DNA of 64,000 nucleotides, taken from the IMG/VR virus record IMGVR_UViG_3300011116_001227; one strand, 5' to 3'. The notes below the pieces were generated by a model, which had not been told where the DNA came from, searched no databases, and saw nothing but the letters and a program-made list of their open reading frames with translations. Source of the DNA: a virus (Duplodnaviria > Caudoviricetes). Shown piece after piece: positions 9,412-22,966 of this stretch. Position 1 is the stretch's first letter. Each line of letters begins with the position of its first letter. The translations under genes and the position numbers were made by a program.

Positions 9412-9751
9412 AATTTTTCTCCAATTCGTCTTTTGAAACAAAGAAATCATTCGAACCGTCAGGATTACCATCGGGCGGCCTTAGGTCTACACCTCGAATA
9501 CTCACAGCAGTGACTGTATAAAGAACGCCACCCTGATCTTTATAGGTGTTAATTTCGTCCTTATCTTTGTCGTCCCTGACTTTACTTTTGATCTTTAAGC
9601 CTGGATCAAGCACAGATTTGTTCTTGCCGTCGACTTTGGTGTTGAAAGCAAGATCAACCTTTTCAGCAAGGGCAGATAATTTAGAATTCCACTCTTCCCG
9701 AATTAGTTTGATGAAGTCATTATCGTTTTTCTTCATTACGCAATTTCTCAA
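9398..9751 (-). CDS. Hypothetical protein (FIKLIREEW leader)
   Basis: 117-aa ORF overlapping neighbours. Confidence 0.55.
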   Translation of the reverse strand: MRNCVMKKNDNDFIKLIREEWNSKLSALAEKVDLAFNTKVDGKNKSVLDPGLKIKSKVRDDKDKDEINTYKDQGGVLYTVTAVSIRGVDLRPPDGNPDGSNDFFVSKDELEKNYVRD

Positions 9752-10194
9752 TCTGTAAGTATCAAGTCATTCAATCTAGTTACTTCTATCCCAGAATTTC
9801 TAAGTATCTTTAAACCTGACATGTCTCGATACTCAAAATCGTAAATTACGCTAGAAATATCAGCATTTACAATTAGTTTTGCACAAGAAACGCATGGGGC
9901 ATGCGTCAAGTACATAATTTTCTTTCTATTAAAATTATAATTACACTTTATTAAAGCATTAACTTCAGCATGAATCATGCCACTTTGCCCCGGCTGATCA
10001 CTTTCTGCTTCGTTTGGACCTCCTCTATAATTTCCGTTATAACCAAGAGACAAAAGACGAGTGTTGTCATCAGATACAACAATTGCGCCTACTTTTAGTC
10101 TGGGATCATAAGAACGCTCTGAAATATTCCAGGCAATCTTCATCCAGACCTGCGGCCAGGGTGGTCTTTTCATATTACTTTTCGCGTGTATCAA
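9748..10194 (-). CDS. dCMP deaminase
   Basis: HAEVNAL and PCVSC zinc-binding motifs, KVGAIVV, GYNG. Confidence 0.9.
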   Translation of the reverse strand: MIHAKSNMKRPPWPQVWMKIAWNISERSYDPRLKVGAIVVSDDNTRLLSLGYNGNYRGGPNEAESDQPGQSGMIHAEVNALIKCNYNFNRKKIMYLTHAPCVSCAKLIVNADISSVIYDFEYRDMSGLKILRNSGIEVTRLNDLILTD

Positions 10195-10741
10195 TTAGAG
10201 GATGACACTTTAGACACCGAGGTTCATATAACTCTGCACCACCCACCTCGATCTCGTCTCCACCGACCTGTTTCTTGTATGTGTAATAAGCATCTCTATT
10301 ACAAACTACACAAACTGCGCTGAGTTTTTCAACTTTAGTTGCCCAAGGAAGCATCTTCTCGACTTCAGAAAAAACCAATCCCGTAGATGAAAGCTCAAGA
10401 GAAGAAACAACGACTGAGTAGCCATTTCTATACAGCCATATCAATGTTTCTGCAATGTTTGGAATCATAAATGCTTCATCAACAGCAACAACGTGAGGAT
10501 TTTCGTTGAGCGTTGCCAAATGTTGAATAACATCTGCACCTGATTTTACACACACAGCTGACATTTTTGATCCTCCGTGCGTGATGACTTCAGTCTCGCT
10601 GTAACGATCATCAATTTCTGGTTTGTACAATACAATTCGCTTATGCTGATACTTGTATCTTTCAAGCGAAGAAAGCAATCTTGATGTCTTTGAAGAGAAC
10701 ATCGGACCCGTATAAACAATAAATTCAGGTATATACATCAC
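10175..10741 (-). CDS. tdk: Thymidine kinase
   Basis: GPMFSSKT P-loop, VDEAF, C-terminal CxxC...CxxC lasso with GGAELYEPRC. Confidence 0.9.
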   Translation of the reverse strand: MMYIPEFIVYTGPMFSSKTSRLLSSLERYKYQHKRIVLYKPEIDDRYSETEVITHGGSKMSAVCVKSGADVIQHLATLNENPHVVAVDEAFMIPNIAETLIWLYRNGYSVVVSSLELSSTGLVFSEVEKMLPWATKVEKLSAVCVVCNRDAYYTYKKQVGGDEIEVGGAELYEPRCLKCHPLIDTREK

Positions 10742-10747
10742 TTTACC

Positions 10748-11710
10748 TCACTGCATCTTCTGCAACCAATCCCAATTGTCTTCATACCACTTTATTGTTT
10801 TATCTAGACCTTCCCAGACTTTTACTCTTGGATCATAACCTATCAATTCTTTGGCTTTTGTAATATCAGCCTTCGTGTTCTTGACGTCACCGATTCTCCA
10901 AGGCGCGTTATGAGAAATTGCTTTTGGATATTTTGACTTCAAGTAATTAAGAATCTGTAAATTTGTAACAACTTCGCCGACACCAACATTAATAATCTCA
11001 GCTTTGAGATCTTCTTTACAGAGCGCTGATTTAATAAGTGCATCGACAACATTATCAACATAACACATGTCTCTGGATTGCGATCCATCACCGTCAGAAC
11101 GCATTGACTTATTAGACTTTATTGCAGTCAACCAGGCACTGACTGCGGTCGAGTAAGGAGAAGTTCCTAATTGATTCGGACCAAATACGTTGAAGAATCT
11201 TAAGCATACAGAATCGAGACCGTACAGAGAATAAAACAGCTTTAGATAATTCTCAATTATCGCTTTTTGAAGTGCATAAGGAGATTGCGGATTATTGATC
11301 GCAGTCTCTGGTGTAGGAAGTATGTCTGTATTGCCGTAAGAAGATGAAGATGCAGCAAAAACAAATCTTTTGACTGTGCCTTTTGTTTTACATGCATTTA
11401 ATAACATGAGTGTCTTTGACACATTTGTATCATTTGTTTCTACAGGATGTTCTACAGAATAAGTCACTCTTGGATTTGCTGCCAGATGAAAAACATATTC
11501 GTATGCTCCTTCACTAATTCTCTTTAAGACTTCGGGCGATGCAAAATCTTCAACCCACAAGCGCTCTGACCTGAGGTCTACATGCAAAAATTGAGCATTA
11601 CCATTTGAGAGATCATCTACGACGTCGACATGCCACCCTCTCGCATGAAGTGCATTCGAAAGATTACTTCCAATAAAACCTGCGCCACCTGTAACAAGAA
11701 CTTTAGTCAT
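10748..11710 (-). CDS. NAD-dependent epimerase/dehydratase (extended SDR) 1
   Basis: VLVTGGAGFIG, ASSSSYG, YALQK (YxxxK), LRFFNVFGP; ATG at 11710 with GGAG SD. Confidence 0.9.
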   Translation of the reverse strand: MTKVLVTGGAGFIGSNLSNALHARGWHVDVVDDLSNGNAQFLHVDLRSERLWVEDFASPEVLKRISEGAYEYVFHLAANPRVTYSVEHPVETNDTNVSKTLMLLNACKTKGTVKRFVFAASSSSYGNTDILPTPETAINNPQSPYALQKAIIENYLKLFYSLYGLDSVCLRFFNVFGPNQLGTSPYSTAVSAWLTAIKSNKSMRSDGDGSQSRDMCYVDNVVDALIKSALCKEDLKAEIINVGVGEVVTNLQILNYLKSKYPKAISHNAPWRIGDVKNTKADITKAKELIGYDPRVKVWEGLDKTIKWYEDNWDWLQKMQ

Positions 11711-11731
11711 TCTCGACTCTCCAATTTCGCA

Positions 11732-11760
11732 ATTATAACACTCGTAAAAAATGCGTATAA
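11732..11760 (-). promoter_or_regulatory. sigma70-like promoter
   Basis: TTATAC-N17-TATAAT with TG extended -10, upstream of 11710. Confidence 0.55.
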
Positions 11761-11762
11761 GA

Positions 11763-12758
11763 TCAAGTCTTCTTCCAAAAAGAATACATGTTCTTCTCAA
11801 TCTCGTAATTCATGAGCTTGACTTCTCTCTTTGGCTGAGTCTTAGCCCATGTTATCATCTTATCGACGAGCTGCTCGAAATTTGTGTCGTCCTTAAAGTC
11901 TAGTTCTCTCTTTGCCTTAGAGTGATCACAATAAGCAATCTTCACTTCATCACGTGGCTCAAGATGAACAATCTTAACATCCAATCCGTGACGCTTAGCA
12001 ACAAGCTGAAAACGCTGAGCAGCTTCGAGGATAGAAACATGACTATCAGCACCAATATTGTAAATTTCGCCATCACCCATCACCATCAATTTTTCAAAAG
12101 GCTCCATGTAAAAATCGACATCAGAGAAAGATCTCATCTGCAAACCATCTCCGAAGATAGTCAGAGGTTGTCCAGATAAACTTTGTCTAATCCAGATGCC
12201 AATTACATTCCTGTATTTATCCCAAATATTCTGGTAAACCCCGAATACATTGTGCGGTCTTACAATGCTGTAATTCAAACCAAAAAATCTATTTGCTGCT
12301 ACTAGATCCTGCTCCACAGTATATTTCGCAATACCGTACGGATCTTCAGGCAATTGTCTTTGAGTCTCTACGAAAGGCGGTGTCTGTGTGCCGTACACGT
12401 CCATCGAACTTGCAAAAATCATCTTTTTAACACTGTTGTTTATGCAAGAATTAATCACGTTTGCAGATGCAACGACATTATTTAAATAGTTGTGATTTCT
12501 GATAAACGGACTTAATCCAACAGCTGCATAAGCAGCAAAGTGATAAACAAAATCAGGTTTCTCTGTCTGCATCATGTAATTAGTCAGTCGAAGATCTGTT
12601 AAATTACATTCATAGATCTGAACTGACTGGTGAACTAAATCTCTATAACCTCCACTAAAATCGTCGATTCCAATTACCTTGTGACCCTTTTTTATAAAGT
12701 GTCTCGACAAATGGTTTCCAAGTAAACCTGCAACGCCAGTGATAAGAATTTTTGACAT
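11763..12758 (-). CDS. NAD-dependent epimerase/dehydratase (extended SDR) 2
   Basis: ILITGVAGLLG, ASSMDVYG, YGIAK, RPHNVFG. Confidence 0.9.
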   Translation of the reverse strand: MSKILITGVAGLLGNHLSRHFIKKGHKVIGIDDFSGGYRDLVHQSVQIYECNLTDLRLTNYMMQTEKPDFVYHFAAYAAVGLSPFIRNHNYLNNVVASANVINSCINNSVKKMIFASSMDVYGTQTPPFVETQRQLPEDPYGIAKYTVEQDLVAANRFFGLNYSIVRPHNVFGVYQNIWDKYRNVIGIWIRQSLSGQPLTIFGDGLQMRSFSDVDFYMEPFEKLMVMGDGEIYNIGADSHVSILEAAQRFQLVAKRHGLDVKIVHLEPRDEVKIAYCDHSKAKRELDFKDDTNFEQLVDKMITWAKTQPKREVKLMNYEIEKNMYSFWKKT

Positions 12759-12781
12759 ATAAGATCAATTATAACATTCTA

Positions 12782-13693
12782 TCAAATAACGTCTTGTCTG
12801 ACATGTGCGCTATTTAAATTGACGACAAGCGAAATACTCTTTGCTGGCCATAGAAATTTTTTCGTAATAAAAGCAGCAAGATGTGCAAGAAATCTTGTGT
12901 CAATAGACCCGTTTTTTCGAACGTCCGTGCTTCTAAGTGTACAAACAACACTGACATTTTCATTACGGGGAAGAAAATGAATAGAAGAGATACAAGAATT
13001 ACTTGAATAATAAAAACGTCTGGACGAAAGGTCTTGAGGCAAGTTGTAAGGATTTTTACCTTCTAACTCGTTCTCTATGATTTCACAGCATTCTTTCATA
13101 ATACTGCTGTAATATTCACATTCATGTTTATTAAGCATGATCTCATCGTCGCTATAAGAAGGATCGATTGACATCTTGAATTTTAGCTGCTCCTCGTAAG
13201 AAAATAGACCAGACACCCAAGATGATGTCATGTTACCTACTTCTCCAGGCAAAGAATTCTCTTGTGATTTTAAACGATTTGCAACATAATCAGCTAGTTG
13301 ATCCGCAGATTCTGAATTTCTAATCACAAGAACATTCGGCATGTATTGCAGTTTAGATACTTCTTCATCAAATATTTGTCTTAACTTTACAACAGATGCA
13401 GCATCTTGAAATTCATCTCCTCGAGATGATAAACGATCGAGTAAAACATCTTCGGGCGGAATCAAGACGACAAAAAAGTTGTTGAGATCTGATAATTCTT
13501 CTCTCAAAAATTGTCTTTGCTTCTCTACGTCACGACCGTACTGTCTTGCATAACAAAGCATTGAAAGACAGGAACGATCTTGAATGTTGTAACTAAAATT
13601 TGTCGCTTTGTGAAGCTTGCTAATAAAAGTTGTTTTACCTGCTAGATCGGGACCTTCAACTAGCAGATAACGAATTGGAAGTTGTGTCTTCAT
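12782..13693 (-). CDS. dNMP kinase fused to truncated thymidylate-synthase-superfamily domain
   Basis: N-term EGPDLAGKTT P-loop and QDRS; C-term SRR, catalytic Cys (SCISSIHF) 20 aa before RSTD, Asp at the E. coli N177 position, and SAH. Confidence 0.7.
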   Translation of the reverse strand: MKTQLPIRYLLVEGPDLAGKTTFISKLHKATNFSYNIQDRSCLSMLCYARQYGRDVEKQRQFLREELSDLNNFFVVLIPPEDVLLDRLSSRGDEFQDAASVVKLRQIFDEEVSKLQYMPNVLVIRNSESADQLADYVANRLKSQENSLPGEVGNMTSSWVSGLFSYEEQLKFKMSIDPSYSDDEIMLNKHECEYYSSIMKECCEIIENELEGKNPYNLPQDLSSRRFYYSSNSCISSIHFLPRNENVSVVCTLRSTDVRKNGSIDTRFLAHLAAFITKKFLWPAKSISLVVNLNSAHVRQDVI

Positions 13694-13697
13694 AATC

Positions 13698-14174
13698 TTA
13701 AGAACGTAAGATCAATCTTACCAAGCTACGTACAAGATTTTCAAATTTCATCTGTTCGTAACCTTTATTTAAGGTAACAAGATAATCTTTTGAAACTTCT
13801 GACTTCTTTGGGTCGATACTAACATAAGCATAAGCTTCGTAACATCTTCCTTCGCAGTTCACAGTCACTCTAATTTTTTTATAATCTTGTTCAGCTGTTC
13901 TCTTATCAGCGTCTTCGAAACAATCTAAAGATTTTTCTTGTATTGGAGTTGTCTCATATAAGACGCCCTTCACAAAATGTCCTGGTGATTTAATTGCTGT
14001 TGCTCCGTGCCACGTCTTAGAATATCCCGTAAATCCAAGATTAAAGTTAGGCAATACAGCATTTCCGATTTTTTTTAAGTTTAAATCTGTAAAACCACAA
14101 GGAGGACCGGACTTCGCTCTCTTGTGAAGCAAGTCTTGGTCCATGTTGGCGCCATAAGCAAAGTAGAAAGACAT
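13698..14174 (-). CDS. Gamma-glutamylcyclotransferase (GGCT/AIG2-like) family protein
   Basis: YFAYGANM signature, VKGVLY, LDCFE. Confidence 0.8.
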   Translation of the reverse strand: MSFYFAYGANMDQDLLHKRAKSGPPCGFTDLNLKKIGNAVLPNFNLGFTGYSKTWHGATAIKSPGHFVKGVLYETTPIQEKSLDCFEDADKRTAEQDYKKIRVTVNCEGRCYEAYAYVSIDPKKSEVSKDYLVTLNKGYEQMKFENLVRSLVRLILRS

Positions 14175-14192
14175 ATTACGGGTAATTGTGAC

Positions 14193-17100: not shown

Positions 17101-18227
17101 TCGTGCGGCTTATTCTGTGCTTCACCTAGAAGAATCTTGCCGCTGTAGATTCCGCCTAGACAGTTATGAACTACAACACCGTTCGCAAAGAAATTGTGGT
17201 TGTCTTCGACAGTAATATCGTAGACATCTTCTGTGTAGTCCAATTCTTCAACTTCGATCACGTCAACGAACTTGTAGGTTTCCATATTATTTTTCATCCA
17301 AGAAACAATCTTGACAGGCATGTTCTCCTTGAGCTCATCGGCACGAAGCCAGCCCTTGTCTGTCAAGACTTGATGGTCTGGTGTGAGTCTTACTTCTTTA
17401 CCATCAGCAGTCTTGAGCTTGACGATCTTTGCAGATGTCCTCGTCTTATCTCCCCACAAGACACGTTTGAACTGCAGTTCTTTGCTTTCTTCATTGAAGG
17501 AAAGAACTATGGGATTCTCCCCTGCCCTGTATCTCTCGATGACTCTTAGCAATGTCTCGGTACCCATGTCTGTTACAAGCTCAGCATCACCCGTAAGACA
17601 CGCCGTCGACCAGATGATGTCTGACCCGTATTTTTGGAGTAGCTCAAAGTCGATTCGAGGATAACGATAGAAGCCGTACTTGTAAGATGCCTTGACAAGT
17701 CTGAAGATGTTCGCAAGACCGTTCTGATTCTTAGCTACAGCAACAAGGTGATAGCGTCGTTGCCAGTCTCTGGATGACACGTCGACTGTCTTGGTTTCAT
17801 TCTCATCTTCAACGACGTGGCCGCCCTGTTCATCCTCTTCTTCGCCCGGATCGGCATCGATGTCTGTAGGAGTCTTGGCACGCTTCTCCATCTCAGCAGC
17901 AGTCTTTGCATCCTTAACGCTCTGCTTATGGGCTTCATAATCAATAGCCCACTGCTTCAGTGAGGGCACAAAGTAGAATTCCACACCGTAGAGCTGTCGA
18001 TACTTCTTGCCCTTCTTCTGTACCTTCAGAGCTGCAGATCGAGCATGTGCTAGACCGTTGCCATTACCATGATCTGTGAGTGCCCAGGCATCCATACCTT
18101 GTGACTCAGAGGTGACAAAGGCAATGTGATCGGCTGGATAGCCGAGTCCGTCGAAGGTGCTAAATCCGCTGTGGCCGTGGAAAGAAACAAATCTGTCAGG
18201 TGGGCGAATAAGATCTAATTTTGACAT
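14193..18227 (-). CDS. dnaE: DNA polymerase III alpha subunit (family C), intein-containing
   Basis: PHP domain (HGHSGFSTFDG, TDHG, DSHY), GRGSGAGSLV, PDIDTD, GRHAGGV, KFDFLGL, YRPGP, CFNKSH. Confidence 0.95.
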   Translation of the reverse strand: MSKLDLIRPPDRFVSFHGHSGFSTFDGLGYPADHIAFVTSESQGMDAWALTDHGNGNGLAHARSAALKVQKKGKKYRQLYGVEFYFVPSLKQWAIDYEAHKQSVKDAKTAAEMEKRAKTPTDIDADPGEEEDEQGGHVVEDENETKTVDVSSRDWQRRYHLVAVAKNQNGLANIFRLVKASYKYGFYRYPRIDFELLQKYGSDIIWSTACLTGDAELVTDMGTETLLRVIERYRAGENPIVLSFNEESKELQFKRVLWGDKTRTSAKIVKLKTADGKEVRLTPDHQVLTDKGWLRADELKENMPVKIVSWMKNNMETYKFVDVIEVEELDYTEDVYDITVEDNHNFFANGVVVHNCLGGIYSGKILLGEAQNKPHDEIMTDLENLTDRFQSAVGNKNFYLELQFNKLEKQHTVNKYLIDLSKKTGVPLVSTCDSHYPDPSKWQARELYKKLGWMGAKLDGATLPKFEDLKCELYPKNASQMWDEYKRSYEQYEFYKGSEELVRDSIERTHDITWNECEDTWVDTKPKLPKVDTPEKSAFKQLTELVMEGLKREGLDDKPAYVERAKYELGDIKYLKCASYFITMYKVFNLAKEKTLFGSGRGSGAGSLVNFLLGITQIDPIPYGLLWSRFLGRHRVSFPDIDTDAGDRDVLIDAARTLFGDDAVIPVSNFNTLKLKSLVKDIAKIYGVPFEEVNEMTGPLQDEVMPLARDEDQEKSVFVLKHEDCMKYSPKYTAFMEKYPEVAAHVETLFMQNRSVGRHAGGVLLADPDDLAANMPIIGVRGELQTPWTEGMNFRNLEDNGFLKFDFLGLTLLKDVENCISRILVKQGNPNPTFLDVREFFDKHLNCRYVKQDDPVVWKHVYQDGAFVSVFQMTAEGARKFCKAVKPTKIEDLTAITAIYRPGPLKANVHNLFVEARKKEHIDYPHPIIEQVLGPTRNFVVYQEQFMLLAEKLGGFTPGEADQLRKTLVKKSLDTLDKKTSEKEIAKQKFIEGAQRIHGVGPEVTEPLWQTIDNMSVYCFNKSHSLAYAIDSYYAAWLHTHYEKEWLATALQSENTNPKGLAKTISEIKALGYSFSKIDVNYSGKEWQYSEEAAAFVPPLSSVKGIGSTAVEEIMQLRPYKNLQEMLYDNEGNWRHSKMNKTALSALCKIDALSSLEDFSVGKINNHKQLLLALTDDKNYEMLRRGLYGLTASQLKKKAKAGEKIEAFLDVTLASLAEIEDWSREEKILMCQELTQSVDSDLLFPPAVMSKIAEKQVPKLHDIEPGTEGIGWFCAAEVQVKKTKNGKIFYRIKAVDDEHRTAWLRAWGTPKEEIKPYTLWLAQASNDANWGFSTSVYKMRALVE
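17163..17600 (-). mobile_element. Mini-intein (146 aa, no endonuclease) in DnaE PHP domain
   Basis: WSTA/CLTGDAELV ... LTPDHQVLT ... VYDITVEDNHNFFANGVVVHN/CLGG; removal restores the STACLGG PHP motif. Confidence 0.92.
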
Positions 18228-18272
18228 GAGTCTCTACTAGTAATTTACCACAAAAGTACGCGTCTTTACACG

Positions 18273-19265
18273 TCAAACTTTAGGGAAATGTTGCAGTAGA
18301 TCTGTACCTTTCGACTTAGCTTCATCGAGATACTTCAGAGGGTTATAGTTCTTAGATGAATTTGAAGAAATCCAATCGTAAGTCGCCTTGACGCCGCCCT
18401 CCAAGTCAAGCTTCGGAGACCAGCCAATTTGCTTTCTGACCTTGGCAGATGACAGTCTGTGGTTTCCGAGATAATCAGTCTTTGGATACCAGCGGACGAT
18501 TTTTTCTACGTTTTTCCCGACAACACGAGAAACAAGATTCATGATCTCTGCGGCGGTGTGAGGTGTCTCAGCTGCGACGTTAAAATCAGTACCCCAACCA
18601 TCCTTGCTCTCACAGATCATCGACACGGCTTCACAGTAATCGGACACGTGGAGATAATCCTTGATCTTCGCGGGGTCTAAGAAGATGTCAACAGAATCTT
18701 TGTTCTGCAAGGATGCATAGATACTCTTGGCGATGAGTGAATTCATGTCACCCTCGTCACCAAAAGCGAAGAGAGGACGCACCACAGACCAGCGTTTTGC
18801 CATGCTGGTGATGATCTGTTCACCTGCAAGCTTCTGCACGCCATAATAAGTGAGAGGCTTTCTAGCTGAGTCTTCAAAAATCTGCTGATTCTGGTAGGAA
18901 GGCGTGTCATAAATCACGGTGGTACCCATGTAGCACACGCCGGCACCAGCTGCGTTAGCTGCTCTAACAATATTGTAAGAACCGTGCACGTTGCTCAGCG
19001 TCGCTTCTGCGGGATTGAGAGCAACCACGTCTGTTCCCACAACGGCTGCATTGTGCACAACAACATCAACCCCGTATTTTTTAAAAGCTCTTGACCAAAC
19101 GTCTTCTGAATTTCGGTGCACACACACTTCACCCGTTTTTGGTAACGTAAGCATGTTGTCTCCAATTAGATCAGCATCCGATAGAATCGAGTGACCTCGA
19201 GCAATCAGCTTCTTCTTCAAATGTCTAGCAATAAATCCTGCACCACCCGTAATGTAAAAACGCAT
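18273..19265 (-). CDS. NAD-dependent epimerase/dehydratase (extended SDR) 3
   Basis: FYITGGAGFIA, HNAA, YGVQK; ATG at 19265 with GGAGG SD. Confidence 0.85.
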   Translation of the reverse strand: MRFYITGGAGFIARHLKKKLIARGHSILSDADLIGDNMLTLPKTGEVCVHRNSEDVWSRAFKKYGVDVVVHNAAVVGTDVVALNPAEATLSNVHGSYNIVRAANAAGAGVCYMGTTVIYDTPSYQNQQIFEDSARKPLTYYGVQKLAGEQIITSMAKRWSVVRPLFAFGDEGDMNSLIAKSIYASLQNKDSVDIFLDPAKIKDYLHVSDYCEAVSMICESKDGWGTDFNVAAETPHTAAEIMNLVSRVVGKNVEKIVRWYPKTDYLGNHRLSSAKVRKQIGWSPKLDLEGGVKATYDWISSNSSKNYNPLKYLDEAKSKGTDLLQHFPKV

Positions 19266-19365
19266 GTCTCCTCCGATGCAGAGCATTATAACAAAAAAAG
19301 CGACCAAATACAAGGTCACTTTTTTATAGATCTCGAGATTTTGAGAATGAATTACAAGCTAAAAA

Positions 19366-19632
19366 TCACATCATGTATTCTTTAAACAGCTCGGCCAATC
19401 CGTCCCGCGCGAAGTCTTTTGCTTCTTCACTGTCATACTCCTCGGCGATAGCATTCTGCTCTATGTTCATACGCAAAGATTCTAAAGCAGCTTTTGCTGC
19501 GTCTATTTTAGTAATATCTGCAAGTGATCCTAAAGCAAGTCTGCCTGGAGTTAAAGTGTCGTCGCCCTCGTTGAGAACCTTTGAGACCTCTTCTGCAATG
19601 ATCTTGCGGAGTTGTGATGATGTTAATTTCAT
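19366..19632 (-). CDS. Small protein with MKLTSSQLRKIIAEE leader
   Basis: Leader nearly identical to those of 33745..34020 and 26172..26774; ATATTTAA motif upstream (19658-19665). Confidence 0.7.
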   Translation of the reverse strand: MKLTSSQLRKIIAEEVSKVLNEGDDTLTPGRLALGSLADITKIDAAKAALESLRMNIEQNAIAEEYDSEEAKDFARDGLAELFKEYMM

Positions 19633-19698
19633 TATTTATCCTAAGTGACTATTGATTTTAAATATAAGTCAATGCTGCTTTAATCTTTTCTGCAATAT

Positions 19699-19727
19699 AA
19701 AAATGGCGACTATTTTCATAGTCGCCA
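19699..19727 (-). terminator. Rho-independent terminator
   Basis: Perfect 10-bp stem TGGCGACTAT/ATAGTCGCCA, 4-nt loop, T5 tract on the minus strand. Confidence 0.8.
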
Positions 19728-19940
19728 AGGTGTTTTTAACTTCAGTTTTTAATCAGCAACAGACGCAATGATTAAAGTTTGTAGATTTTAATTTATTACT
19801 TTATCTCGTAGTTCTATAAAGAAGAACGTCATCGAGCTCTTTTTATCTTTTTAAAACTTAATCTTGCGTTTAAATACTCCAATTCAACTCTTTACACCCA
19901 TAACTAATTATAGAGTTTGTTGGAATTTATCAACTAATCA

Positions 19941-20414
19941 TCACTCAATTTCTTTGTCATACGGCTCGTAAAGCATCTCACCTTCAGACTTACAGCGTTC
20001 CAGGTAGTCCTCGAGCTCTTCAAAAGAAGTACACACACGCGAGCCTGATCTTGACAACATGAGATTAAACTTTGCTCCGGCAGGAAGTCCTGCGCAGAAA
20101 TAGATAATGTGCTTATCAAAAGCAGTGGCATATCCACATTCCATGATTGTGCCAAGATCCTTGTCACGTGTATTCACCACGAGAAAGTCGGCCTCGCGAA
20201 TGTGCTTTAGGTTCCCCTGATAGGTTGCATCTTGAACCTCTCGAGATGCATTAGGGGGACAGATAAAGATCCTTCGAGGAGACGCCATATCAATCCAGTC
20301 CTTGCGTGCCTCCATGATCTGCTCAAGTCTTGTAAGCTCTGCATCCTGTACAGGATTAAACCATCCGGCTGCAAGATACATCTTCAGAGTACGTCCAAAC
20401 TTATTCTCACTCAT
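19941..20414 (-). CDS. Nucleoside 2-deoxyribosyltransferase / 5'-NMP N-glycosidase (NDT, MilB, DNPH1-like)
   Basis: YLAAGWF, HIREAD, DLGTIMECGYA (catalytic Glu) motifs. Confidence 0.8.
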   Translation of the reverse strand: MSENKFGRTLKMYLAAGWFNPVQDAELTRLEQIMEARKDWIDMASPRRIFICPPNASREVQDATYQGNLKHIREADFLVVNTRDKDLGTIMECGYATAFDKHIIYFCAGLPAGAKFNLMLSRSGSRVCTSFEELEDYLERCKSEGEMLYEPYDKEIE

Positions 20415-20444
20415 TATTGTGTCCTTTCAATCGCTCGATTTCTA

Positions 20445-20473
20445 ATAGTAGACTATACTTGTCAATTGAACAA
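20445..20473 (-). promoter_or_regulatory. sigma70-like promoter
   Basis: TTGTTC-N17-TACTAT upstream of 20414. Confidence 0.5.
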
Positions 20474-20528
20474 GAATCAGATTTCGCGATGTTTTCATGC
20501 AATTAGTACTAAATAGTACTAGACAAGT

Positions 20529-21509
20529 TCACTTGTTTGACTTCCAGTTATTGTGCTCAGACTTGAGCTTATCAAACTCAGAAATACCTGAATTCCAATG
20601 CTGAAGGAACTTTCTCTGTGGGCCATCTCCGTGAGTACCATTTAGCTCTTCGCGGGTGCACTGGTAGATTGTATCCTCGGGATGGTACTCGAACTTATCA
20701 TTCTTTGGAATGGGCCAGTATAGGTTTGTGCCGCGGGACACGAACTTATCACCCTCCTTCACGCGGAAGGTCTTGATGTAGTGCATGTCGGGCTTGTTGA
20801 AGTCCACCATCGTGGTGAACTCCGGAATAACCTTGGCAACCTCGACTGCCATTCTTACCGCAAGCAGGTTGTCACTAGATGTTTGAATTTGAGAATCTTG
20901 ACGCTGATAAATGAAGCCCACCAGGTCCTTGAGCGAAAGACGCATATAGTAGAACGAGGTCATGCACTTAGGAAGAATGAGTCGTGCGTCCATCATAGAC
21001 ACGACCTTGGAATCAGTCATATCAGCGTAGAGCTGCTTGGACTCTTCGACAAGCTTCTTCCATCTCGCCAAGAACTCAGGTGAATTCTCTACGGGCTCAG
21101 GAATGACTGCATCGTCGTCGCGGAGGTCGCGATCGCCGGTGCACTGTGCAGCAAAAGTGCCAGCACGGTGGCGGATGATGTGTGTCACCTCTTGGAAAGA
21201 CATACCGCTCAGACGGAATGTGAAACCGAGACATTCCATGGGAGCCGGAAGTGTTCGTCCACCAAAGACGTCCTCCAGGTTCTTAGACAGATCATGATCT
21301 GATGCTGACTCGGGATGGATGTCAGGTCTATCTGCCCAAGTTGCCTTAACATAATGCCAAGCCACGTTCCAAGCTTGCTGTCGCGTCGGATGGTCGACAA
21401 GCTCGATCTTTAGTGCATCGATGTTGTTGAGGAAGTTGGTCTTGACTGGTCGTCCGAACTTTAATTCCATGGGTAGTTCAATCGGCTGTAGGTCTTTATT
21501 AATGGGCAT
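20529..21509 (-). CDS. Divergent flavin-dependent thymidylate synthase (ThyX)-like protein
   Basis: ME..FTFRLSG.S...HIIRHR, DARLILP and FIYQR motifs; catalytic RHR-x7-S appears as RHRAGTFAAQC. Confidence 0.75.
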   Translation of the reverse strand: MPINKDLQPIELPMELKFGRPVKTNFLNNIDALKIELVDHPTRQQAWNVAWHYVKATWADRPDIHPESASDHDLSKNLEDVFGGRTLPAPMECLGFTFRLSGMSFQEVTHIIRHRAGTFAAQCTGDRDLRDDDAVIPEPVENSPEFLARWKKLVEESKQLYADMTDSKVVSMMDARLILPKCMTSFYYMRLSLKDLVGFIYQRQDSQIQTSSDNLLAVRMAVEVAKVIPEFTTMVDFNKPDMHYIKTFRVKEGDKFVSRGTNLYWPIPKNDKFEYHPEDTIYQCTREELNGTHGDGPQRKFLQHWNSGISEFDKLKSEHNNWKSNK

Positions 21510-21581
21510 AATTTCTCCAAATATGAGTTGTAGTCTTCAATTATTGTCTATGAGAGGATCAAAGTACAATTGCAATCTTCA

Positions 21582-22523
21582 TCAAAGAATATGGGCAATC
21601 TTATCGATTACGTCTTCATTTTCTTCGACGTAGATAATTCCTCTAACATTTTTTACTTCTTCGTTGTATGATTTTTTAGGAACTACGCATATGACGCCGT
21701 GCTTTGCGTATTCTGACGCATGTTTAGCTGAATCATCTACAGCAAATAATTTTGCAGTCTTATAGAAGTCTTGTCCCGCGAGCCAAGCAAATTTTTCTGG
21801 CGTGAATACTACGTCATCTGCAGGAATCTTGTTGAGGTGCAGCCACGCGTATGTATCGTAAAAGCAAGTTAGATTTTGTGAATCTCTTGCTGTAACTATC
21901 TGCACCCAGTATCCCTTCTGTTTTAAAGCAATTAAGAAGTTGTAGTACTTCTTGCTGAGCTCTAGACGCAAAAATCCATGGTCTTCGATGAATTTCTTAA
22001 AAAAGAATTCGCTGTTTAAACCATGCTCTTTAAACTTCACTGTGTTGTAATATTCTGGACAATACGGGTCCATGAATATTCCTGTTTGATCTGTAACATA
22101 TTTACAGAATTCATTTCTAAACTCTGCCAACACATCGTCGATGTCAAACAAAACGATGGGTTCTCCTGACCACTTCTTGTCTCGAAGTTGGTGTCTGTAA
22201 TGAAGATAATGATCTTTCTGTTCAAGAGCTGACGTCAATTGTTCTGAAGTAAGATTCCATAAATTTGCAATTGCCAAGATGTAACGATACGCGTCAGCAG
22301 ACTTATACAAGATCTTTTGCAGATCTGTTTCTCTTGCTTCTCTGCGATGTTCTTTGTAGTTGACAGCACTGCACAAATCTGTAATCTCGGAGTGAAGTGC
22401 AAGACTTAAAGTTTTAAACTCTTCGATCTTCTGTTCGTCAGTTAACTCAGATGAATTATAAAAGTAATTTGAAAAAGTCTTTTGCGTTCTCAACGCATCA
22501 ACAAGGTAATTCCAGTTAGACAT
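21582..22523 (-). CDS. All-alpha NTP pyrophosphatase (MazG/dUTPase-like, degenerate) fused to HAD 5'-nucleotidase
   Basis: N-term ALHSEITDL...YKSADAYRY; C-term FDIDDVL (DxD), VTAR, AVDDS. Confidence 0.7.
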   Translation of the reverse strand: MSNWNYLVDALRTQKTFSNYFYNSSELTDEQKIEEFKTLSLALHSEITDLCSAVNYKEHRREARETDLQKILYKSADAYRYILAIANLWNLTSEQLTSALEQKDHYLHYRHQLRDKKWSGEPIVLFDIDDVLAEFRNEFCKYVTDQTGIFMDPYCPEYYNTVKFKEHGLNSEFFFKKFIEDHGFLRLELSKKYYNFLIALKQKGYWVQIVTARDSQNLTCFYDTYAWLHLNKIPADDVVFTPEKFAWLAGQDFYKTAKLFAVDDSAKHASEYAKHGVICVVPKKSYNEEVKNVRGIIYVEENEDVIDKIAHIL

Positions 22524-22526
22524 GTA

Positions 22527-22892
22527 TCAATAACCGCTCTTTAGACGCTGAACATTAATTGCACCCTTCTTCATAAAAGCTTCGTGCAATTCTTCAGAAG
22601 AAATTCCACTATAAATGACGATGCCAAAGAAGTAGTGTAATGCGTCTACGAGCTCTTCTTTGTAAGATTCTCTATCGAATTCTTTGACTTCTGTCACGCG
22701 ATGATTCTTGCTGTTCTTCAAGAGATGATTAGCTTCAAAAAGCTCGTGCATACATTCGTGAGCTAATCCTTTTAAAATTTGTTGATTCTTCTTTTCTTTT
22801 AAATCGAGAGGAAAATCCGGGTAACCTCTATCGTCCCTTAACAAATAATTAAAGTCACGTTGTTGATTGTACATCTCATCAAGTTTATCCAT
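22527..22892 (-). CDS. All-alpha NTP pyrophosphatase (dimeric dUTPase/dCTPase, MazG-like)
   Basis: HECMHELFEA...KEELVDALHYF acidic metal-binding motifs; ATG at 22892 with GAGG SD. Confidence 0.8.
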   Translation of the reverse strand: MDKLDEMYNQQRDFNYLLRDDRGYPDFPLDLKEKKNQQILKGLAHECMHELFEANHLLKNSKNHRVTEVKEFDRESYKEELVDALHYFFGIVIYSGISSEELHEAFMKKGAINVQRLKSGY

Positions 22893-22966
22893 GCAAACCT
22901 CTTGTGTTATTTTAAACCCGACAACACTCAAAGTACAATACAAGTTGATTATAATAATTACAAATT

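What the first reader, a model, noticed from the sequence alone, without database searches (positions are those of the whole stretch)
9748..22892. Candidate undescribed DNA base-modification pathway wrapped around the DnaE polymerase
Seen: within ~13 kb lie dCMP deaminase, TK, three NDP-sugar SDRs, a kinase-TS-like fusion, GGCT, DnaE, an NDT-like N-glycosidase, a divergent ThyX, and two all-alpha NTP pyrophosphatase domains plus a HAD nucleotidase. The window already has a conventional set elsewhere (ThyX 33046, Tmk 32456, dUTPase 39816), so this second set appears redundant unless it handles a non-canonical nucleotide. Established: phages with substituted DNA use this logic, e.g. T4 (TS-like dCMP hydroxymethylase gp42, kinase gp1, dCTPase gp56). 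TS-like + NDT-like + NDP-sugar enzymes also recall mildiomycin MilA/MilB, and a ThyX paralog recalls polyoxin PolB. Inference: a pre-replicative, probably cytosine, modification possibly carrying a sugar-derived group; I do not recognise this exact gene combination.
Basis: partly seen in the sequence, partly recalled or inferred. Interest (0 to 1): 0.87.

Follow-up and report, generated by a model that had tools for sequence, protein, structure and literature searches.

The report
Phage cytosine-modification gene block around DnaE
An uncultured freshwater/estuarine jumbo phage, like well over a hundred related viral contigs, keeps a fixed set of nucleotide enzymes around its DNA polymerase gene, including a previously unannotated mini thymidylate-synthase domain fused to a kinase, which suggests but does not prove that it builds its DNA with a modified cytosine.

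Summary

The block is not a chance grouping. The order gp56-like NTPase / NTPase-HAD nucleotidase / divergent ThyX / NDT-like / SDR / DnaE / kinase-TS fusion / SDR / TK / dCMP deaminase recurs in the related IMG/VR contigs fetched. These include a 284-kb complete genome.

Key result: the 303-aa "kinase" folds at pLDDT 93 into a Tmk/dNK-like kinase plus a ~140-aa TS-fold domain.
- Its best PDB matches are the phage dCMP 5-hydroxylase AfhB and T4 dCMP hydroxymethylase.
- The nucleophile Cys, Arg-Arg, Arg-Ser and the cytosine-selecting Asp (ThyA N177 position) are invariant.
- A gp56-type pyrophosphatase sits nearby.
- All five related genomes tested carry both a canonical ThyX and the divergent one.

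Best reading (about 0.55): a T-even-like pre-replicative cytosine replacement pathway in a new format.

Open points: the chemical group, the roles of the ThyX paralog, NDT-like and HAD enzymes, and any sugar attachment. No glycosyltransferase lies in the window. Relatives carry a distant glycan island. No chemical evidence exists.

The scan's first readers noted a similar kinase-TS fusion in another genome (e1-5403999, unchecked).

The parts
22527..22943 (-). All-alpha NTP pyrophosphatase of the dimeric-dUTPase/T4-gp56 family. The probable start is the ATG at 22892.
   Evidence: PF08761, 2e-6, 28.6 bits against a cut-off of 22.9. phrog_12184 nucleotide pyrophosphohydrolase. BLASTP to RB69 gp56 dCTPase, 6e-8. 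The E..E and EE.VD motifs are conserved in 57 homologues. Found in 73/80 loci.
21582..22523 (-). Fusion protein. The N-terminal domain is a degenerate all-alpha NTPase. The C-terminal domain is an NT5C-type HAD 5'-deoxynucleotidase.
   Evidence: PF06941, 7.8e-6. The N-domain is homologous to the neighbouring NTPase (hhalign 98%, E 7e-14). The HAD DxD, T, K and DD motifs are conserved. Found in 67/80 loci.
20529..21509 (-). Divergent ThyX paralog (ThyXL), 326 aa, with N- and C-terminal extensions.
   Evidence: PF02511, 2.9e-16. NCBIfam thyX 33.7 bits against a cut-off of 87.9. The AF2 model has a ThyX fold like Mtb ThyX and PolB. The motif RHRAG(S/T)FAAQCTGDRDLR is invariant and mean column identity is 71%. 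It is 26% identical to the window's canonical ThyX.
19941..20414 (-). Nucleoside 2-deoxyribosyltransferase-family protein.
   Evidence: PF05014, 2.2e-13. Best PDB sequence match is the N-deoxyribosyltransferase 6evs. The Tyr, Asp(-6), Glu, NLM and C-terminal IE positions are conserved in 63 homologues. It is next to ThyXL in 77/80 loci.
18273..19319 (-). SDR3, a divergent extended-SDR NDP-sugar epimerase/dehydratase-like protein.
   Evidence: PF01370, 1.8e-28. Best PDB match is a UDP-glucose 4-epimerase, 4zrm, 1e-19. Found in 63/80 loci.
14193..18227 (-). DnaE-type replicative polymerase alpha subunit with a mini-intein in the PHP domain.
   Evidence: PF07733, PF17657, PF02811, PF14579 and PF14890. 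It lies directly upstream of the kinase-TS fusion in 80/80 loci.
13698..14174 (-). GGACT/AIG2-like gamma-glutamyl cyclotransferase-fold protein. It is an accessory gene, not part of the conserved core.
   Evidence: PF06094, 2.9e-10. tblastn finds no hit in 160 related loci. A GGCT is also present in Geobacillus phage GR1.
12782..13693 (-). K303. Residues ~1-147 form a Tmk/dNK-fold P-loop kinase. Residues ~150-303 form a minimal thymidylate-synthase-fold domain with Cys234, Arg225-Arg226, Arg254-Ser255, Asp265 and His297.
   Evidence: AF2 pLDDT 93.2. Top Foldseek PDB hit is AfhB dCMP hydroxylase 9iqu, 5.5e-6, followed by TS and T4 dCMP hydroxymethylase. VIA Z is 14.7 for the kinase domain and 11.0-11.2 for AfhB. 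The C-domain profile's best PDB sequence hits are AfhB at 0.021 and T4 gp42 at 0.031. Invariant residues come and the motif statistics.
11763..12758 (-). SDR2, GalE-like UDP-hexose 4-epimerase. Present only in close relatives.
   Evidence: PF01370, 4e-46. PDB 4zrm UDP-glucose 4-epimerase, 2.4e-40. True orthologues (64-78% identity) occur only in the nearest loci.
10748..11800 (-). SDR1, WbgU/WbpP-like UDP-sugar 4-epimerase.
   Evidence: PF01370, 1.2e-47. PDB WbgU, 1e-51. It lies downstream of K303 in 53/80 loci.
10175..10741 (-). Thymidine kinase.
   Evidence: PF00265, 6.6e-41. Found in 67/80 K303-anchored loci.
9748..10194 (-). dCMP deaminase.
   Evidence: PF00383, 1.3e-18. Found in 67/80 K303-anchored loci.
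33046..33705 (-). Canonical ThyX. It serves as the comparator that makes ThyXL a paralog.
   Evidence: PF02511, 1.9e-35. It carries the canonical KHR..S.NAESARY motif.
32456..33049 (-). Conventional thymidylate kinase (comparator).
   Evidence: PF02223, 8.8e-11.
39816..40304 (-). Trimeric dUTPase (comparator). Because it is present, dUTP removal does not need the all-alpha NTPase.
   Evidence: PF00692, 1.1e-35.

Best explanation
The block is the nucleotide-pool arm of a pre-replicative pyrimidine (most likely cytosine) replacement pathway of the T-even type. It belongs to a widespread clade of aquatic jumbo myoviruses that replicate with DnaE.

Proposed steps (all enzymatic steps are inferred):
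1. The gp56-family all-alpha pyrophosphatase (22527-22892) strips a canonical dNTP, probably dCTP, to the monophosphate.
2. The minimal TS-fold domain of K303 (12782-13693) attacks C6 of dCMP with Cys234. It holds the phosphate with Arg225/226 and Arg254/Ser255 and reads the cytosine face with Asp265. It then installs a C5 substituent. Hydroxyl (AfhB-like) and hydroxymethyl (gp42-like) are the two candidates, and the cofactor is unknown.
3. The fused Tmk/dNK-fold kinase passes the nucleotide along the phosphorylation ladder. Its position before or after the TS step cannot be told.
4. The adjacent DnaE incorporates the product.
5. dCMP deaminase, TK, canonical ThyX and Tmk keep dTTP supplied, as in T4.

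A second conserved trio probably handles a uracil-type nucleoside or nucleotide. This trio is the HAD 5'-nucleotidase fusion, the ThyX paralog and the NDT-family enzyme. It either clears the displaced canonical nucleotide or makes a second modified pyrimidine.

The UDP-sugar 4-epimerase-like SDRs may supply a sugar donor for later DNA glycosylation. That link is the weakest.

What is shown: the gene content, the conserved synteny, the fold and motif conservation of K303, and the paralog status of ThyXL. The DNA modification itself is inferred.
For: K303:
- It is a confident two-domain model (pLDDT 93.2, pTM 0.89).
- The C-domain's best structural matches are AfhB dCMP hydroxylase (Foldseek 5.5e-6; VIA Z 11.0-11.2 over 142-143 residues) and TS/T4 dCMP hydroxymethylase.
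- Against 177,635 PDB sequences, its profile ranks AfhB (0.021) and T4 gp42 (0.031) first. The alignment runs through Cys, Arg-Ser, Asp and the SAH motif.
- hhalign to RB69 5hodCMP synthase gp48 aligns the same motifs (E 2.5e-4).
- Invariant in 19-40 homologues: R225, R226, C234, R254, S255, D265; H297 invariant in the 19 and nearly so (90% or more) in the 40.
- In 96 cluster representatives carrying the motif, the Cys-to-Arg spacing is 20 (as in ThyA C146-R166) in 91. Asp sits at the N177 position in 85.
- The ESM Atlas holds a viral cluster of full-size Tmk-TS fusions as a neighbour (score 0.89, a lead only).

Other components:
- The gp56-family NTPase has BLASTP 6e-8 to RB69 gp56. A trimeric dUTPase already exists.
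- The family is large and purely viral or metagenomic: 124 50%-clusters at E<1e-30.
- The gene directly follows DnaE in 80/80 loci.

Paralog status of ThyXL:
- Five of 5 related genomes have both a canonical ThyX (129-174 bits) and ThyXL (66-75 bits).
- No ThyA reaches the Pfam cut-off in any of the five; the only weak match (12.6 bits, G001) lies outside K303.

Published precedent (PMC13326640): a TS-family dCMP modifier, a dNMP kinase, a dCTPase, NDP-sugar genes and glycosyltransferases sit next to the polymerase gene in RB69/DLP3. Co-expressing the synthase with its kinase is enough to put 5hoC into DNA.
Against: - There are no chemical data. All holders of this DNA are assembled contigs, so no read-level signal of modification could be examined.
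- Pfam's TS model does not detect K303, and the sequence-level E-values to TS-family proteins are weak (0.02-0.03).
- The TS-like domain lacks roughly the N-terminal 90-110 residues of ThyA, which form much of the folate pocket. Catalytic competence and the cofactor are therefore unproven.
- The D169-equivalent position varies within the family (N 47, D 40, E 4, H 4, L 1). Lee et al. use D169N as the 5hodCMP signature. The window's own protein has Asp, not Asn.
- The kinase fold cannot be assigned to dNMP kinase rather than deoxynucleoside kinase.
- Conserved order in a syntenic replication module does not by itself prove functional coupling.
- No glycosyltransferase lies in or near the block.
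- TK, dCMP deaminase, NDT and NT5C-type nucleotidase are also ordinary salvage enzymes.
- Geobacillus phage GR1 has ThyXL as its only TS-type gene. ThyXL could therefore simply make dTMP.
Confidence: 0.55

Rival explanations
1. Ordinary nucleotide salvage and pool balancing for a large phage in nutrient-poor water.
- The NTPase, nucleotidase, NDT, TK and dCMP deaminase recycle host deoxynucleotides and swap bases to match the phage's composition.
- ThyXL is a second, divergent dTMP synthase.
- The K303 TS-like domain is a nucleotide-binding or regulatory appendage of a kinase.
- The SDRs are glycan auxiliary genes that happen to sit in the replication module.
- Virion DNA is canonical.
For: - Every family in the block except the K303 C-domain has well-known salvage roles.
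- NDT genes occur in unrelated Lactobacillus, Weissella and Vibrio phages.
- GR1 has ThyXL as its sole TS-type gene.
- ThyXL keeps the RHR motif and the Arg residues that align with T. maritima R147 and R174.
- The whole replication module is syntenic in the clade, including DnaB, RNR and dUTPase.
- Relatives hold a separate glycan island showing that they make glycans anyway.
Against: - Strict invariance of the TS nucleophile Cys, both Arg pairs and the cytosine-type Asp across a family of more than 120 clusters is hard to explain for a non-catalytic domain.
- A gp56-family NTPase next to a trimeric dUTPase is redundant for plain sanitation.
- Canonical ThyX and ThyXL co-occur in 5/5 genomes and are only 26% identical.
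- ThyXL has lost the residues aligned with T. maritima H53, N85, E86, R90 and Y91.
Confidence: 0.25
2. The main modification is on the uracil/thymine side.
- ThyXL is a flavin-dependent C5 transferase that stops at, or diverts, the exocyclic-methylene intermediate. An example product would be 5-hydroxymethyl-dUMP or a derivative.
- The NDT-family enzyme, the HAD nucleotidase and TK move that base between nucleoside and nucleotide forms.
- K303 mainly supplies the kinase.
- The DNA would carry a thymidine-type hypermodification.
For: - ThyXL is the most strongly conserved gene of the block (71% mean column identity).
- It is paired with the NDT gene in 77/80 loci, and also in the unrelated Geobacillus phage GR1. 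GR1 additionally carries a glycosyltransferase, an HD protein, an amidoligase, a GGCT and TK, and has no other TS.
- The Arg that aligns with the uracil- and phosphate-binding R174 of T. maritima ThyX is invariant.
- From my own knowledge: hydroxymethylase plus NDT-like glycosidase pairs are known (MilA/MilB, BcmA/BcmB), and DNPH1 acts on hmdUMP. One search lists DNPH1 chains named 5-hydroxymethyl-dUMP N-hydrolase among weak hits.
Against: - No ThyX-family enzyme is known to make anything but a methyl group. The search of the held literature found none.
- The genomes keep a canonical ThyX, Tmk and dUTPase, so dTTP is made.
- The NDT-like protein keeps the Asp and Asn that, from memory, bind a free 5'-OH. 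It does not have the Ser residues of the nucleotide hydrolases. This makes it unlike MilB or DNPH1.
- This reading leaves the Asp265 and Cys234 conservation in K303 unexplained.
Confidence: 0.12
3. ThyXL, the NDT-like enzyme and the SDRs make a free modified base, nucleoside or nucleotide-sugar that is not built into DNA. It could be an antimetabolite or signal used in host takeover, by analogy with the nucleoside-antibiotic pathways for mildiomycin, bacimethrin and polyoxin.
For: - The gene types resemble MilA/MilB and PolB logic. PolB is among the best structural matches of ThyXL (Foldseek 1.6e-9).
- UDP-sugar epimerase-like SDRs are interleaved with these genes.
- No DNA glycosyltransferase was found in the block.
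Against: - The genes are embedded in the replication module, directly around DnaE, in every relative.
- No peptide-ligase, aminotransferase or export genes typical of such pathways lie in the block.
- This reading does not explain the gp56-like NTPase or the kinase fusion.
Confidence: 0.08

Closest known systems
Glycosylated 5-hydroxycytosine pathway of RB69, DLP3 and HY126 (5hodCMP synthase/AfhB, dNMP kinase, gp56 dCTPase, NDP-arabinose genes and glycosyltransferases). Sources: PMC13326640, and He et al., Nat Chem Biol 2026, cited there.
   Same: - A TS-superfamily enzyme acts on dCMP with the N177-to-Asp substitution. AfhB is the best structural and best sequence-profile PDB match of the K303 C-domain.
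- The SAHV/I motif is shared with RB69 gp48.
- A Tmk-like kinase gene lies beside the synthase in RB69.
- A gp56-family NTPase is present.
- The genes sit beside the DNA polymerase gene.
- Sugar-nucleotide genes are interleaved.
   Different: - Here the TS domain is ~140-150 aa instead of 217-238 aa, and it is fused to the kinase.
- Pfam TS does not detect it.
- The D169N signature is present in only about half of the family and absent in the window's protein.
- The polymerase is DnaE, not family B.
- The sugar genes are 4-epimerase-like SDRs, not the arabinose-5-P isomerase/kinase/phosphatase set.
- No glycosyltransferase lies in the block.
- The extra ThyX paralog, NDT-like enzyme and HAD-nucleotidase have no counterpart in those systems.
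T4 hydroxymethylcytosine pathway (gp56 dCTPase, gp42 dCMP hydroxymethylase, gp1 dNMP kinase, cd, tk, td).
   Same: - The division of labour is the same: an NTPase, a TS-fold dCMP modifier with Asp at the N177 position, a kinase, dCMP deaminase, TK and a separate dTMP synthase.
- T4 gp42 is the third-best PDB sequence hit of the K303 C-domain profile (0.031).
   Different: - The TS domain is minimal and lacks most of the folate-binding N-terminal half.
- It is fused to the kinase.
- The kinase has a Tmk/dNK fold. From my own knowledge, T4 gp1 is a different dNMP-kinase type.
- The dTMP synthase is ThyX, not ThyA.
ThyX (flavin-dependent thymidylate synthase) and its paralog PolB, the UMP/dUMP C5-methylase of polyoxin biosynthesis.
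   Same: - ThyXL has a ThyX fold (Foldseek 5.6e-10 to Mtb ThyX and 1.6e-9 to PolB).
- It keeps RHR and the two downstream Arg residues.
   Different: - The motif is RHRx7C-TGDR instead of RHRx7S-xRY.
- The residues aligned with T. maritima H53, N85, E86, R90 and Y91 are Leu, Ala, Ala, Gly and Asp.
- About 65 extra N-terminal and 90 extra C-terminal residues are present.
- It scores far below the NCBIfam thyX cut-off.
- It always accompanies a canonical ThyX in the jumbo-phage clade.
MilA/MilB and BcmA/BcmB (TS-like CMP hydroxymethylase plus NDT-like N-glycosidase), and DNPH1 (hmdUMP hydrolase).
   Same: A pyrimidine C5-modifying enzyme is encoded next to an NDT-superfamily protein.
   Different: - The C5 enzyme next to the NDT gene is ThyX-fold, not ThyA-fold.
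- The NDT-like protein's best match is a true N-deoxyribosyltransferase (6evs, 1.4e-4). DNPH1 hits are weaker (0.014-0.25).
- It keeps the nucleoside-type Asp and Asn (interpretation from memory).
- The setting is a phage replication module, not an antibiotic cluster.
Geobacillus phage GR1 (OK896991), the only cultured phage found with ThyXL.
   Same: ThyXL (46% identity over 93% of the protein) and the NDT-like gene (40%) lie within 5 kb of each other, next to a DnaE-type polymerase. TK, a GGCT and a small all-alpha 'dUTP diphosphatase' are nearby.
   Different: - The genome is 79 kb.
- It has no K303 and no canonical ThyX or ThyA.
- It has a glycosyltransferase, an HD protein, a nitroreductase, a NUDIX protein and an amidoligase in the cluster.
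- No paper naming the phage is in the held library.

Membership tests
Thymidylate synthase superfamily (ThyA / dCMP hydroxymethylase / 5hodCMP synthase): K303 C-domain | TS alpha/beta fold | tested here: met
   The AF2 model has pLDDT 93. Foldseek probability is 1.00 to AfhB, ThyA and T4 gp42, with a best E-value of 5.5e-6. VIA Z is 11.0-11.2 with rmsd 3.1-3.2 A over 142-143 residues to AfhB. Only the core of the fold is present: ~140-150 aa against 217-264 aa in the known enzymes.
Thymidylate synthase superfamily: K303 C-domain | Catalytic Cys, with Arg-Ser 20 residues later and the Arg-Arg phosphate clamp | tested here: met
   C234, R254-S255 and R225-R226 are invariant. The spacing is 20 in 91 of 96 cluster representatives.
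Thymidylate synthase superfamily: K303 C-domain | Recognised by the family's sequence model (Pfam PF00303) | tested here: not met
   K303 has no PF00303 hit in hmmscan. The six-frame PF00303 search of five related genomes also finds nothing at their K303 genes. Profile-to-PDB sequence hits are only 0.02-0.03.
Thymidylate synthase superfamily: K303 C-domain | Folate-binding N-terminal half (ThyA residues ~1-125) | tested here: inconclusive
   The domain begins at about residue 150 of 303, so the segment is absent as sequence. VIA aligns model residues 67..303 to AfhB 7..231, so kinase-domain helices may fill part of that space. The coordinates could not be inspected.
dCMP-specific TS branch (T4 gp42, MilA, AfhB) | Asp at the ThyA N177 position | tested here: met
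   D265 lies 11 residues after R254 and is invariant in A1 and A3. Asp holds this position in 85 of 96 representatives. It aligns to the corresponding Asp of AfhB and T4 gp42.
5hodCMP synthase (Lee et al. 2026) | Asn at the ThyA D169 position (D169N) | tested here: not met
   The window's protein has Asp257 (RSTD). Across the family the position is N 47, D 40, E 4, H 4 and L 1. The signature is taken from PMC13326640.
5hodCMP synthase | Flavin cofactor and O2-dependent hydroxylation of dCMP | not testable with these tools
   This needs purified protein or the in vivo LC-MS assay.
Tmk/dNK-fold P-loop nucleotide kinase: K303 N-domain | Fold, P-loop, DR motif and lid Arg | tested here: met
   VIA Z is 14.7 to YorR, 13.2 to deoxyadenosine kinase and 12.4 to S. 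aureus Tmk, over residues 3-147. EGxDxxGK(T/S)T, DR and RGD are invariant. Nucleoside versus nucleotide substrate is not resolved.
ThyX (FAD-dependent thymidylate synthase): ThyXL | ThyX fold and Pfam Thy1 membership | tested here: met
   PF02511 scores 60.2 bits against a cut-off of 24.8. Foldseek gives 5.6e-10 to Mtb ThyX, with target-normalised TM-scores (TMt) of 0.63-0.76 among the listed ThyX chains.
ThyX equivalog: ThyXL | ThyX motif RHRxxSxxxxSxR(Y), and the NCBIfam equivalog score | tested here: not met
   TIGR02170 scores 33.7 bits against a cut-off of 87.9. The motif reads RHRAG(S/T)FAAQCTGDR: the second Ser is Cys and R-Y is replaced. The canonical motif is present in the window's other ThyX.
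Nucleoside 2-deoxyribosyltransferase family | Pfam membership and the catalytic Glu in the D-x-G-T-x-x-E motif | tested here: met
   PF05014 scores 50.8 bits against a cut-off of 28.8. DLGTIMECGY is conserved in 63 homologues. The sequence aligns to N-deoxyribosyltransferase 6evs. Transferase versus hydrolase activity and the substrate were not tested.
T4 gp56-type dCTPase / dimeric dUTPase family (PF08761) | Pfam membership and the metal-binding acidic motifs | tested here: met
   PF08761 scores 28.6 bits against a cut-off of 22.9. BLASTP to RB69 gp56 gives 6e-8 over 60 residues. The E..E and EE.VD motifs are conserved. Specificity for dCTP was not tested.
NT5C-type HAD 5'(3')-deoxyribonucleotidase | Pfam membership and HAD motifs I-IV | tested here: met
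   PF06941 scores 26.3 bits against a cut-off of 24.8. DxD, T, K and DD are conserved in 57 homologues.
Extended SDR NDP-sugar epimerase/dehydratase | Pfam Epimerase membership, and assignment to a named equivalog | tested here: inconclusive
   All three pass PF01370. None reaches any NCBIfam equivalog cut-off. The best PDB matches are UDP-sugar 4-epimerases: WbgU at 1e-51, and 4zrm at 2e-40 and 1e-19.

The most novel reading that the evidence does not exclude
This abundant aquatic jumbo-phage clade makes a DNA pyrimidine not yet described, using two enzymes without functional precedent.
- The first is a minimal TS core. It has shed the folate pocket and is fused to its kinase.
- The second is a ThyX-family flavoenzyme that installs something other than a methyl group, or that acts at the nucleoside level. 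It would feed a HAD-nucleotidase / NDT / TK route.
- UDP-sugar epimerases would supply a sugar for later decoration of the DNA.
Probability: 0.2. Interest if true: 0.9.

Novelty: new variant of a known kind. Interest (0 to 1): 0.7.

Why it matters
**Scale.** Phage DNA hypermodifications defeat restriction and CRISPR systems, and they supply enzymes for biotechnology. Almost all known pathways come from cultured phages of enterobacteria, Bacillus or Pseudomonas. This block marks a very large uncultured clade.
- The ThyX paralog has 1339 90%-identity clusters.
- The kinase-TS fusion has 124 50%-identity clusters at E<1e-30.
- Near-identical DNA turns up in river, lake and estuarine metagenomes from 9 studies.

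**Annotation.** Databases label the kinase-TS fusion only as 'thymidylate kinase' or 'hypothetical'. A candidate DNA-modifying enzyme family is therefore currently invisible to annotation.

**If confirmed.**
- It would show how small a working TS core can be.
- It would test whether the D169N rule for 5-hydroxycytosine synthases holds outside full-size enzymes.
- It could give the ThyX family its first non-methylating member.

**Practical consequence.** A modified base in such abundant phages could bias metagenomic and nanopore surveys of aquatic viromes.

Tried and rejected
- **Close cultured relatives.** Megablast of the block against 50,697 phage records found nothing. tblastn of K303 found nothing at E<=0.1.
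- **Own genome.** No whole genome is held for the window.
- **K303 pattern search.** The search for related loci with K303 as a single protein found nothing. The alignment-based scan worked.
- **K303 sequence against PDB.** Only a chance hit appeared.
- **Literature.** Searches for Geobacillus phage GR1, for ThyX paralogs in DNA hypermodification, and for kinase-TS fusions found nothing relevant. He et al. 2026 is not held.
- **Inserted ORFs.** Ten ORFs lying between NDT, SDR3 and DnaE in relatives gave no informative Pfam family.
- **Unknown window ORFs as glycosyltransferase candidates.** The 377-aa and 408-aa ORFs (27566-28699 and 30369-31595) had no Pfam, PHROG or PDB-sequence support.
- **K303 C-domain homodimer.** Complex prediction gave no verdict (score 0.12, mark 0.42). 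This is no evidence either way.
- **Sequencing runs.** No RNA holder is listed and all holders are kept as contigs. Neither expression nor read-level modification signals could be examined, and read laying was not used.
- **Host hints.** There are no tRNA genes in the window.
- **Rejected idea: ThyXL as a recent duplicate of the canonical ThyX.** The two are only 26% identical.
- **Rejected idea: GGCT as part of the core pathway.** It is absent from all 160 related loci.

Full report
**1. What is in the window**

The window is part of an uncultured tailed phage. It encodes a tail sheath, a baseplate hub and a tape-measure-like protein. It also has a replication module with DnaB, a class II RNR, RecA/UvsX, a gp32-like SSB, a 5'-3' exonuclease and DnaE.

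- No whole genome is held for it, and no cultured phage is close.
- Related IMG/VR contigs reach 284 kb at an estimated 100% completeness, so this is a jumbo myovirus.
- Near-identical DNA occurs in riverine, lake and estuarine plankton metagenomes from nine studies.

**2. Check of the observation**

- dCMP deaminase is at 9748-10194 and TK at 10175-10741.
- The three extended SDRs are at 10748-11800, 11763-12758 and 18273-19319.
- The 303-aa 'kinase' is at 12782-13693 and the GGACT at 13698-14174.
- DnaE, with an intein, is at 14193-18227.
- The NDT-family protein is at 19941-20414 and the weak ThyX at 20529-21509.
- The HAD/NT5C fusion is at 21582-22523, and the all-alpha NTPase at 22527-22892 (the ORF runs to 22943).
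- The N-terminal domain of the HAD protein is a degenerate copy of the neighbouring NTPase (hhalign 98%, E 7e-14). The HAD motifs are intact.
- The conventional Tmk, ThyX and trimeric dUTPase lie at 32456, 33046 and 39816.

**3. Is the grouping meaningful?**

A scan of IMG/VR with the ThyX paralog returned 114 relatives. In the 80 loci kept, the gene order is constant down to 54% ThyXL identity. The order is NTPase, HAD fusion, ThyXL, NDT, (SDR3), DnaE, K303, (SDR1), TK, dCMP deaminase.

- A second scan anchored on K303 gave another 114 relatives.
- In the 80 kept, DnaE lies immediately upstream in all. TK and dCMP deaminase lie downstream in 67 each.
- K303 is present in all six long relatives in which that region is covered.
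- GGACT is unique to this genome, and SDR2 to its nearest relatives.
- Four loci of one deeper branch (L123, L129, L156, L162) have NDT and ThyXL in swapped order.

The core is therefore a clade-wide feature. One caveat applies: the whole replication module is syntenic, so order alone does not prove a shared pathway.

**4. The kinase-TS fusion (K303)**

This is the decisive piece. With a 19-sequence alignment, AlphaFold2 gives a confident model (pLDDT 93.2, pTM 0.89).

- Residues 3-147 match Tmk/deoxynucleoside-kinase folds (VIA Z 14.7 to YorR and 12-13 to Tmk and dAK).
- For the rest, the top Foldseek hit in the PDB is 9iqu, 'phage HY126 dCMP hydroxylase AfhB with substrate dCMP' (5.5e-6). 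It is followed by 9iqc, thymidylate synthases and T4 dCMP hydroxymethylase.
- VIA gives Z 11.0-11.2 over 142-143 residues to AfhB.
- A profile of 40 C-domains, searched against all PDB sequences, ranks AfhB (0.021) and T4 gp42 (0.031) first. These E-values are weak, but the alignments run through the catalytic motifs.
- hhalign to RB69 gp48 does the same (E 2.5e-4).

Motif conservation:
- Invariant residues are R225-R226, C234, R254-S255 and D265; H297 is invariant in the 19-sequence alignment and nearly so (90% or more) in the 40 C-domains.
- The Cys-to-Arg spacing of 20 equals ThyA C146-R166 in 91 of 96 cluster representatives.
- The Asp 11 residues after the Arg occupies the ThyA N177 position in 85 of 96.
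- From established knowledge, also restated in PMC13326640: N177D switches ThyA to dCMP, and all known dCMP-modifying TS homologues carry Asp there.

Limits on the assignment:
- Pfam's TS model does not see the domain.
- The domain is only ~140-150 aa, so most of the folate-binding half is missing.
- The position that Lee et al. use to recognise 5hodCMP synthases (D169N) is Asn in 47, Asp in 40, and Glu, His or Leu in 9 representatives. It is Asp in the window's own protein.
- The chemistry therefore cannot be called. Hydroxylation and hydroxymethylation are both open, and the family may be split between them.

The family has 124 50%-identity clusters at E<1e-30. All are viral or metagenomic, and sources name them only 'thymidylate kinase' or 'hypothetical'. 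The ESM Atlas lists a viral cluster of 437-aa Tmk plus full TS fusions as a feature neighbour (score 0.89, a lead only).

**5. The other T-even-like parts**

- The small NTPase belongs to PF08761, the family that holds dimeric dUTPases and T4 gp56.
- It aligns to RB69 gp56 dCTPase at 6e-8. Its acidic motifs are conserved.
- A trimeric dUTPase is already present.
- From established knowledge: dCMP deaminase, TK, a separate dTMP synthase and Tmk complete the set that T4 also has.
- In RB69 the published 5hoC cluster likewise lies next to the polymerase gene. It contains a Tmk-like kinase beside the synthase (PMC13326640).

**6. The ThyX paralog, the NDT-like enzyme and the HAD fusion**

ThyXL has a ThyX fold and is the most conserved gene of the block (71% mean column identity).

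- Its motif is RHRAG(S/T)FAAQCTGDR.
- Its best PDB sequence hit is, tellingly, chain 3g4c_A of T. maritima ThyX, which carries a Cys where the other T. maritima chains have the motif's Ser (from memory, the S88C mutant).
- Aligned to T. maritima, the residues at H53, N85, E86, R90 and Y91 are Leu, Ala, Ala, Gly and Asp. The residues aligned with R147 and R174 are kept (residue roles from memory).
- It scores far below the NCBIfam thyX cut-off.
- It is 26% identical to the window's canonical ThyX.
- It co-occurs with a canonical ThyX in 5 of 5 related genomes.

The NDT-like gene is adjacent in 77 of 80 loci. Its product keeps the catalytic Glu, the preceding Asp, the NLM motif and an invariant C-terminal Ile-Glu. 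From memory, these features fit nucleoside transferases better than the nucleotide hydrolases DNPH1 and MilB.

Together with an active NT5C-type nucleotidase and TK, this suggests a nucleoside-level branch. I cannot tell whether it clears a displaced canonical nucleotide, rebalances pools, or makes a second modified pyrimidine.

The only cultured phage with ThyXL (46%) and this NDT (40%) is Geobacillus phage GR1.
- There the two genes sit with a glycosyltransferase, HD, nitroreductase, DnaE, NUDIX, amidoligase, GGCT and TK.
- GR1 has no K303 and no other TS.
- That context fits a thymidine-type modification. It equally fits ThyXL being a working dTMP synthase.

**7. Sugars**

- The three SDRs are closest to UDP-sugar 4-epimerases: WbgU at 1e-51, and T. 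maritima GalE at 2e-40 and 1e-19. None reaches an equivalog cut-off.
- No glycosyltransferase is detectable in the window, nor among the ORFs inserted in the block in relatives.
- Three of four long relatives have a cluster of GT4, GT2 and GT6 enzymes more than 100 kb away.
- In the complete genome G002 that island also holds a bona fide GDP-mannose dehydratase, further SDRs, a carbamoyltransferase and a radical SAM enzyme. It looks like an ordinary glycan island with its own sugar-nucleotide supply.
- The sugar-on-DNA idea is therefore neither supported nor excluded.

**8. Verdict**

- The best-supported reading (about 0.55) is a pre-replicative cytosine replacement pathway of the T-even/5hoC kind, in a new format. 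The new features are a minimal TS core fused to its kinase, DnaE as the polymerase, and an unexplained ThyX-paralog/NDT/HAD branch.
- The main rival (about 0.25) is plain salvage with canonical DNA.
- I class it as a new variant of a known kind.
- It has no chemical evidence behind it. The decisive tests are LC-MS of virion DNA and heterologous expression of K303.

First readers of this scan noted the same fusion on this genome (e1-5366963, e1-5366950) and a similar one in another genome (e1-5403999). I tested the former here and did not examine the latter.

Noticed in passing
window 14193-18227 (intein at about residues 227-355 of DnaE, roughly 17160-17550): DnaE carries a mini-intein in its PHP domain (PF14890 63.7 bits; PF07591 weaker). 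tblastn matches to DnaE in many relatives are shorter or split, so intein presence probably varies.
   Followed up: no
window 23504-26153: The IMP dehydrogenase/GMP reductase gene is split into two ORFs. The N-terminal piece ends in a Hint N-half (25251-26153) and the C-terminal piece begins with an intein C-piece (23504-24148). A NUMOD3/Vsr-like endonuclease ORF lies between them (24111-25217). In relatives L001, L002 and L004 the two halves lie only ~40 bp apart, without the endonuclease.
   Followed up: partly
window 8683-9471 and 3834-4592: An Fe/Mn superoxide dismutase-like protein (PF02777, 1.2e-17) and a carbon-nitrogen hydrolase (PF00795, 2.6e-26) lie just downstream of the block. They are auxiliary metabolic genes of unknown role.
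   Followed up: no
window 28961-30314: An N6/N4 DNA methyltransferase (PF01555, 1e-38) sits next to an HNH endonuclease. The pair is conserved in the nearest relatives (L001-L006). This is a separate, post-replicative DNA methylation capacity.
   Followed up: no
window 43467-44696: A 409-aa protein has only a weak family-A DNA polymerase match (PF00476, 1.5e-11). It is present in addition to DnaE and could be a second, truncated or divergent polymerase.
   Followed up: no
window 14001-22000: GC content is 0.43-0.50 across DnaE, SDR3, NDT and ThyXL. It is 0.35-0.40 in the flanks at 1-14000 and 24000-26000.
   Followed up: no
G002:C1:125000-149000 (loci L085, L086): The complete 284-kb relative has a glycan island. 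It holds three GT4 (one also touching PF20706 'GT4 in conflict systems', 27.3 bits), GT6, GT2, GDP-mannose 4,6-dehydratase (426 bits), three more SDRs, a carbamoyltransferase, a radical SAM enzyme, HtrL/YibB and a PD-(D/E)XK nuclease.
   Followed up: partly
L081 (Geobacillus phage GR1, record 23900-42200): GR1 groups NDT, thioredoxin, HD, a glycosyltransferase, a P-loop NTPase, a nitroreductase, ThyXL, DnaE, a small dUTP diphosphatase, NUDIX, guanylate kinase, an amidoligase, GGCT and TK. It has no canonical TS. It is a candidate modified-DNA phage that can be grown in culture.
   Followed up: partly
window 60380-62035 (+): Apart from two short ORFs that may not be real, this is the only plus-strand gene of the window. 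It is a 551-aa homing/HNH endonuclease (phrog_3339, 1.4e-68) inserted next to the tail sheath gene.
   Followed up: no
loci L123, L129, L156, L162: Four loci of one deeper branch have NDT and ThyXL in swapped order, and a dCMP-deaminase-like gene (26-30% identity) directly after K303. The module has been rearranged but kept.
   Followed up: no
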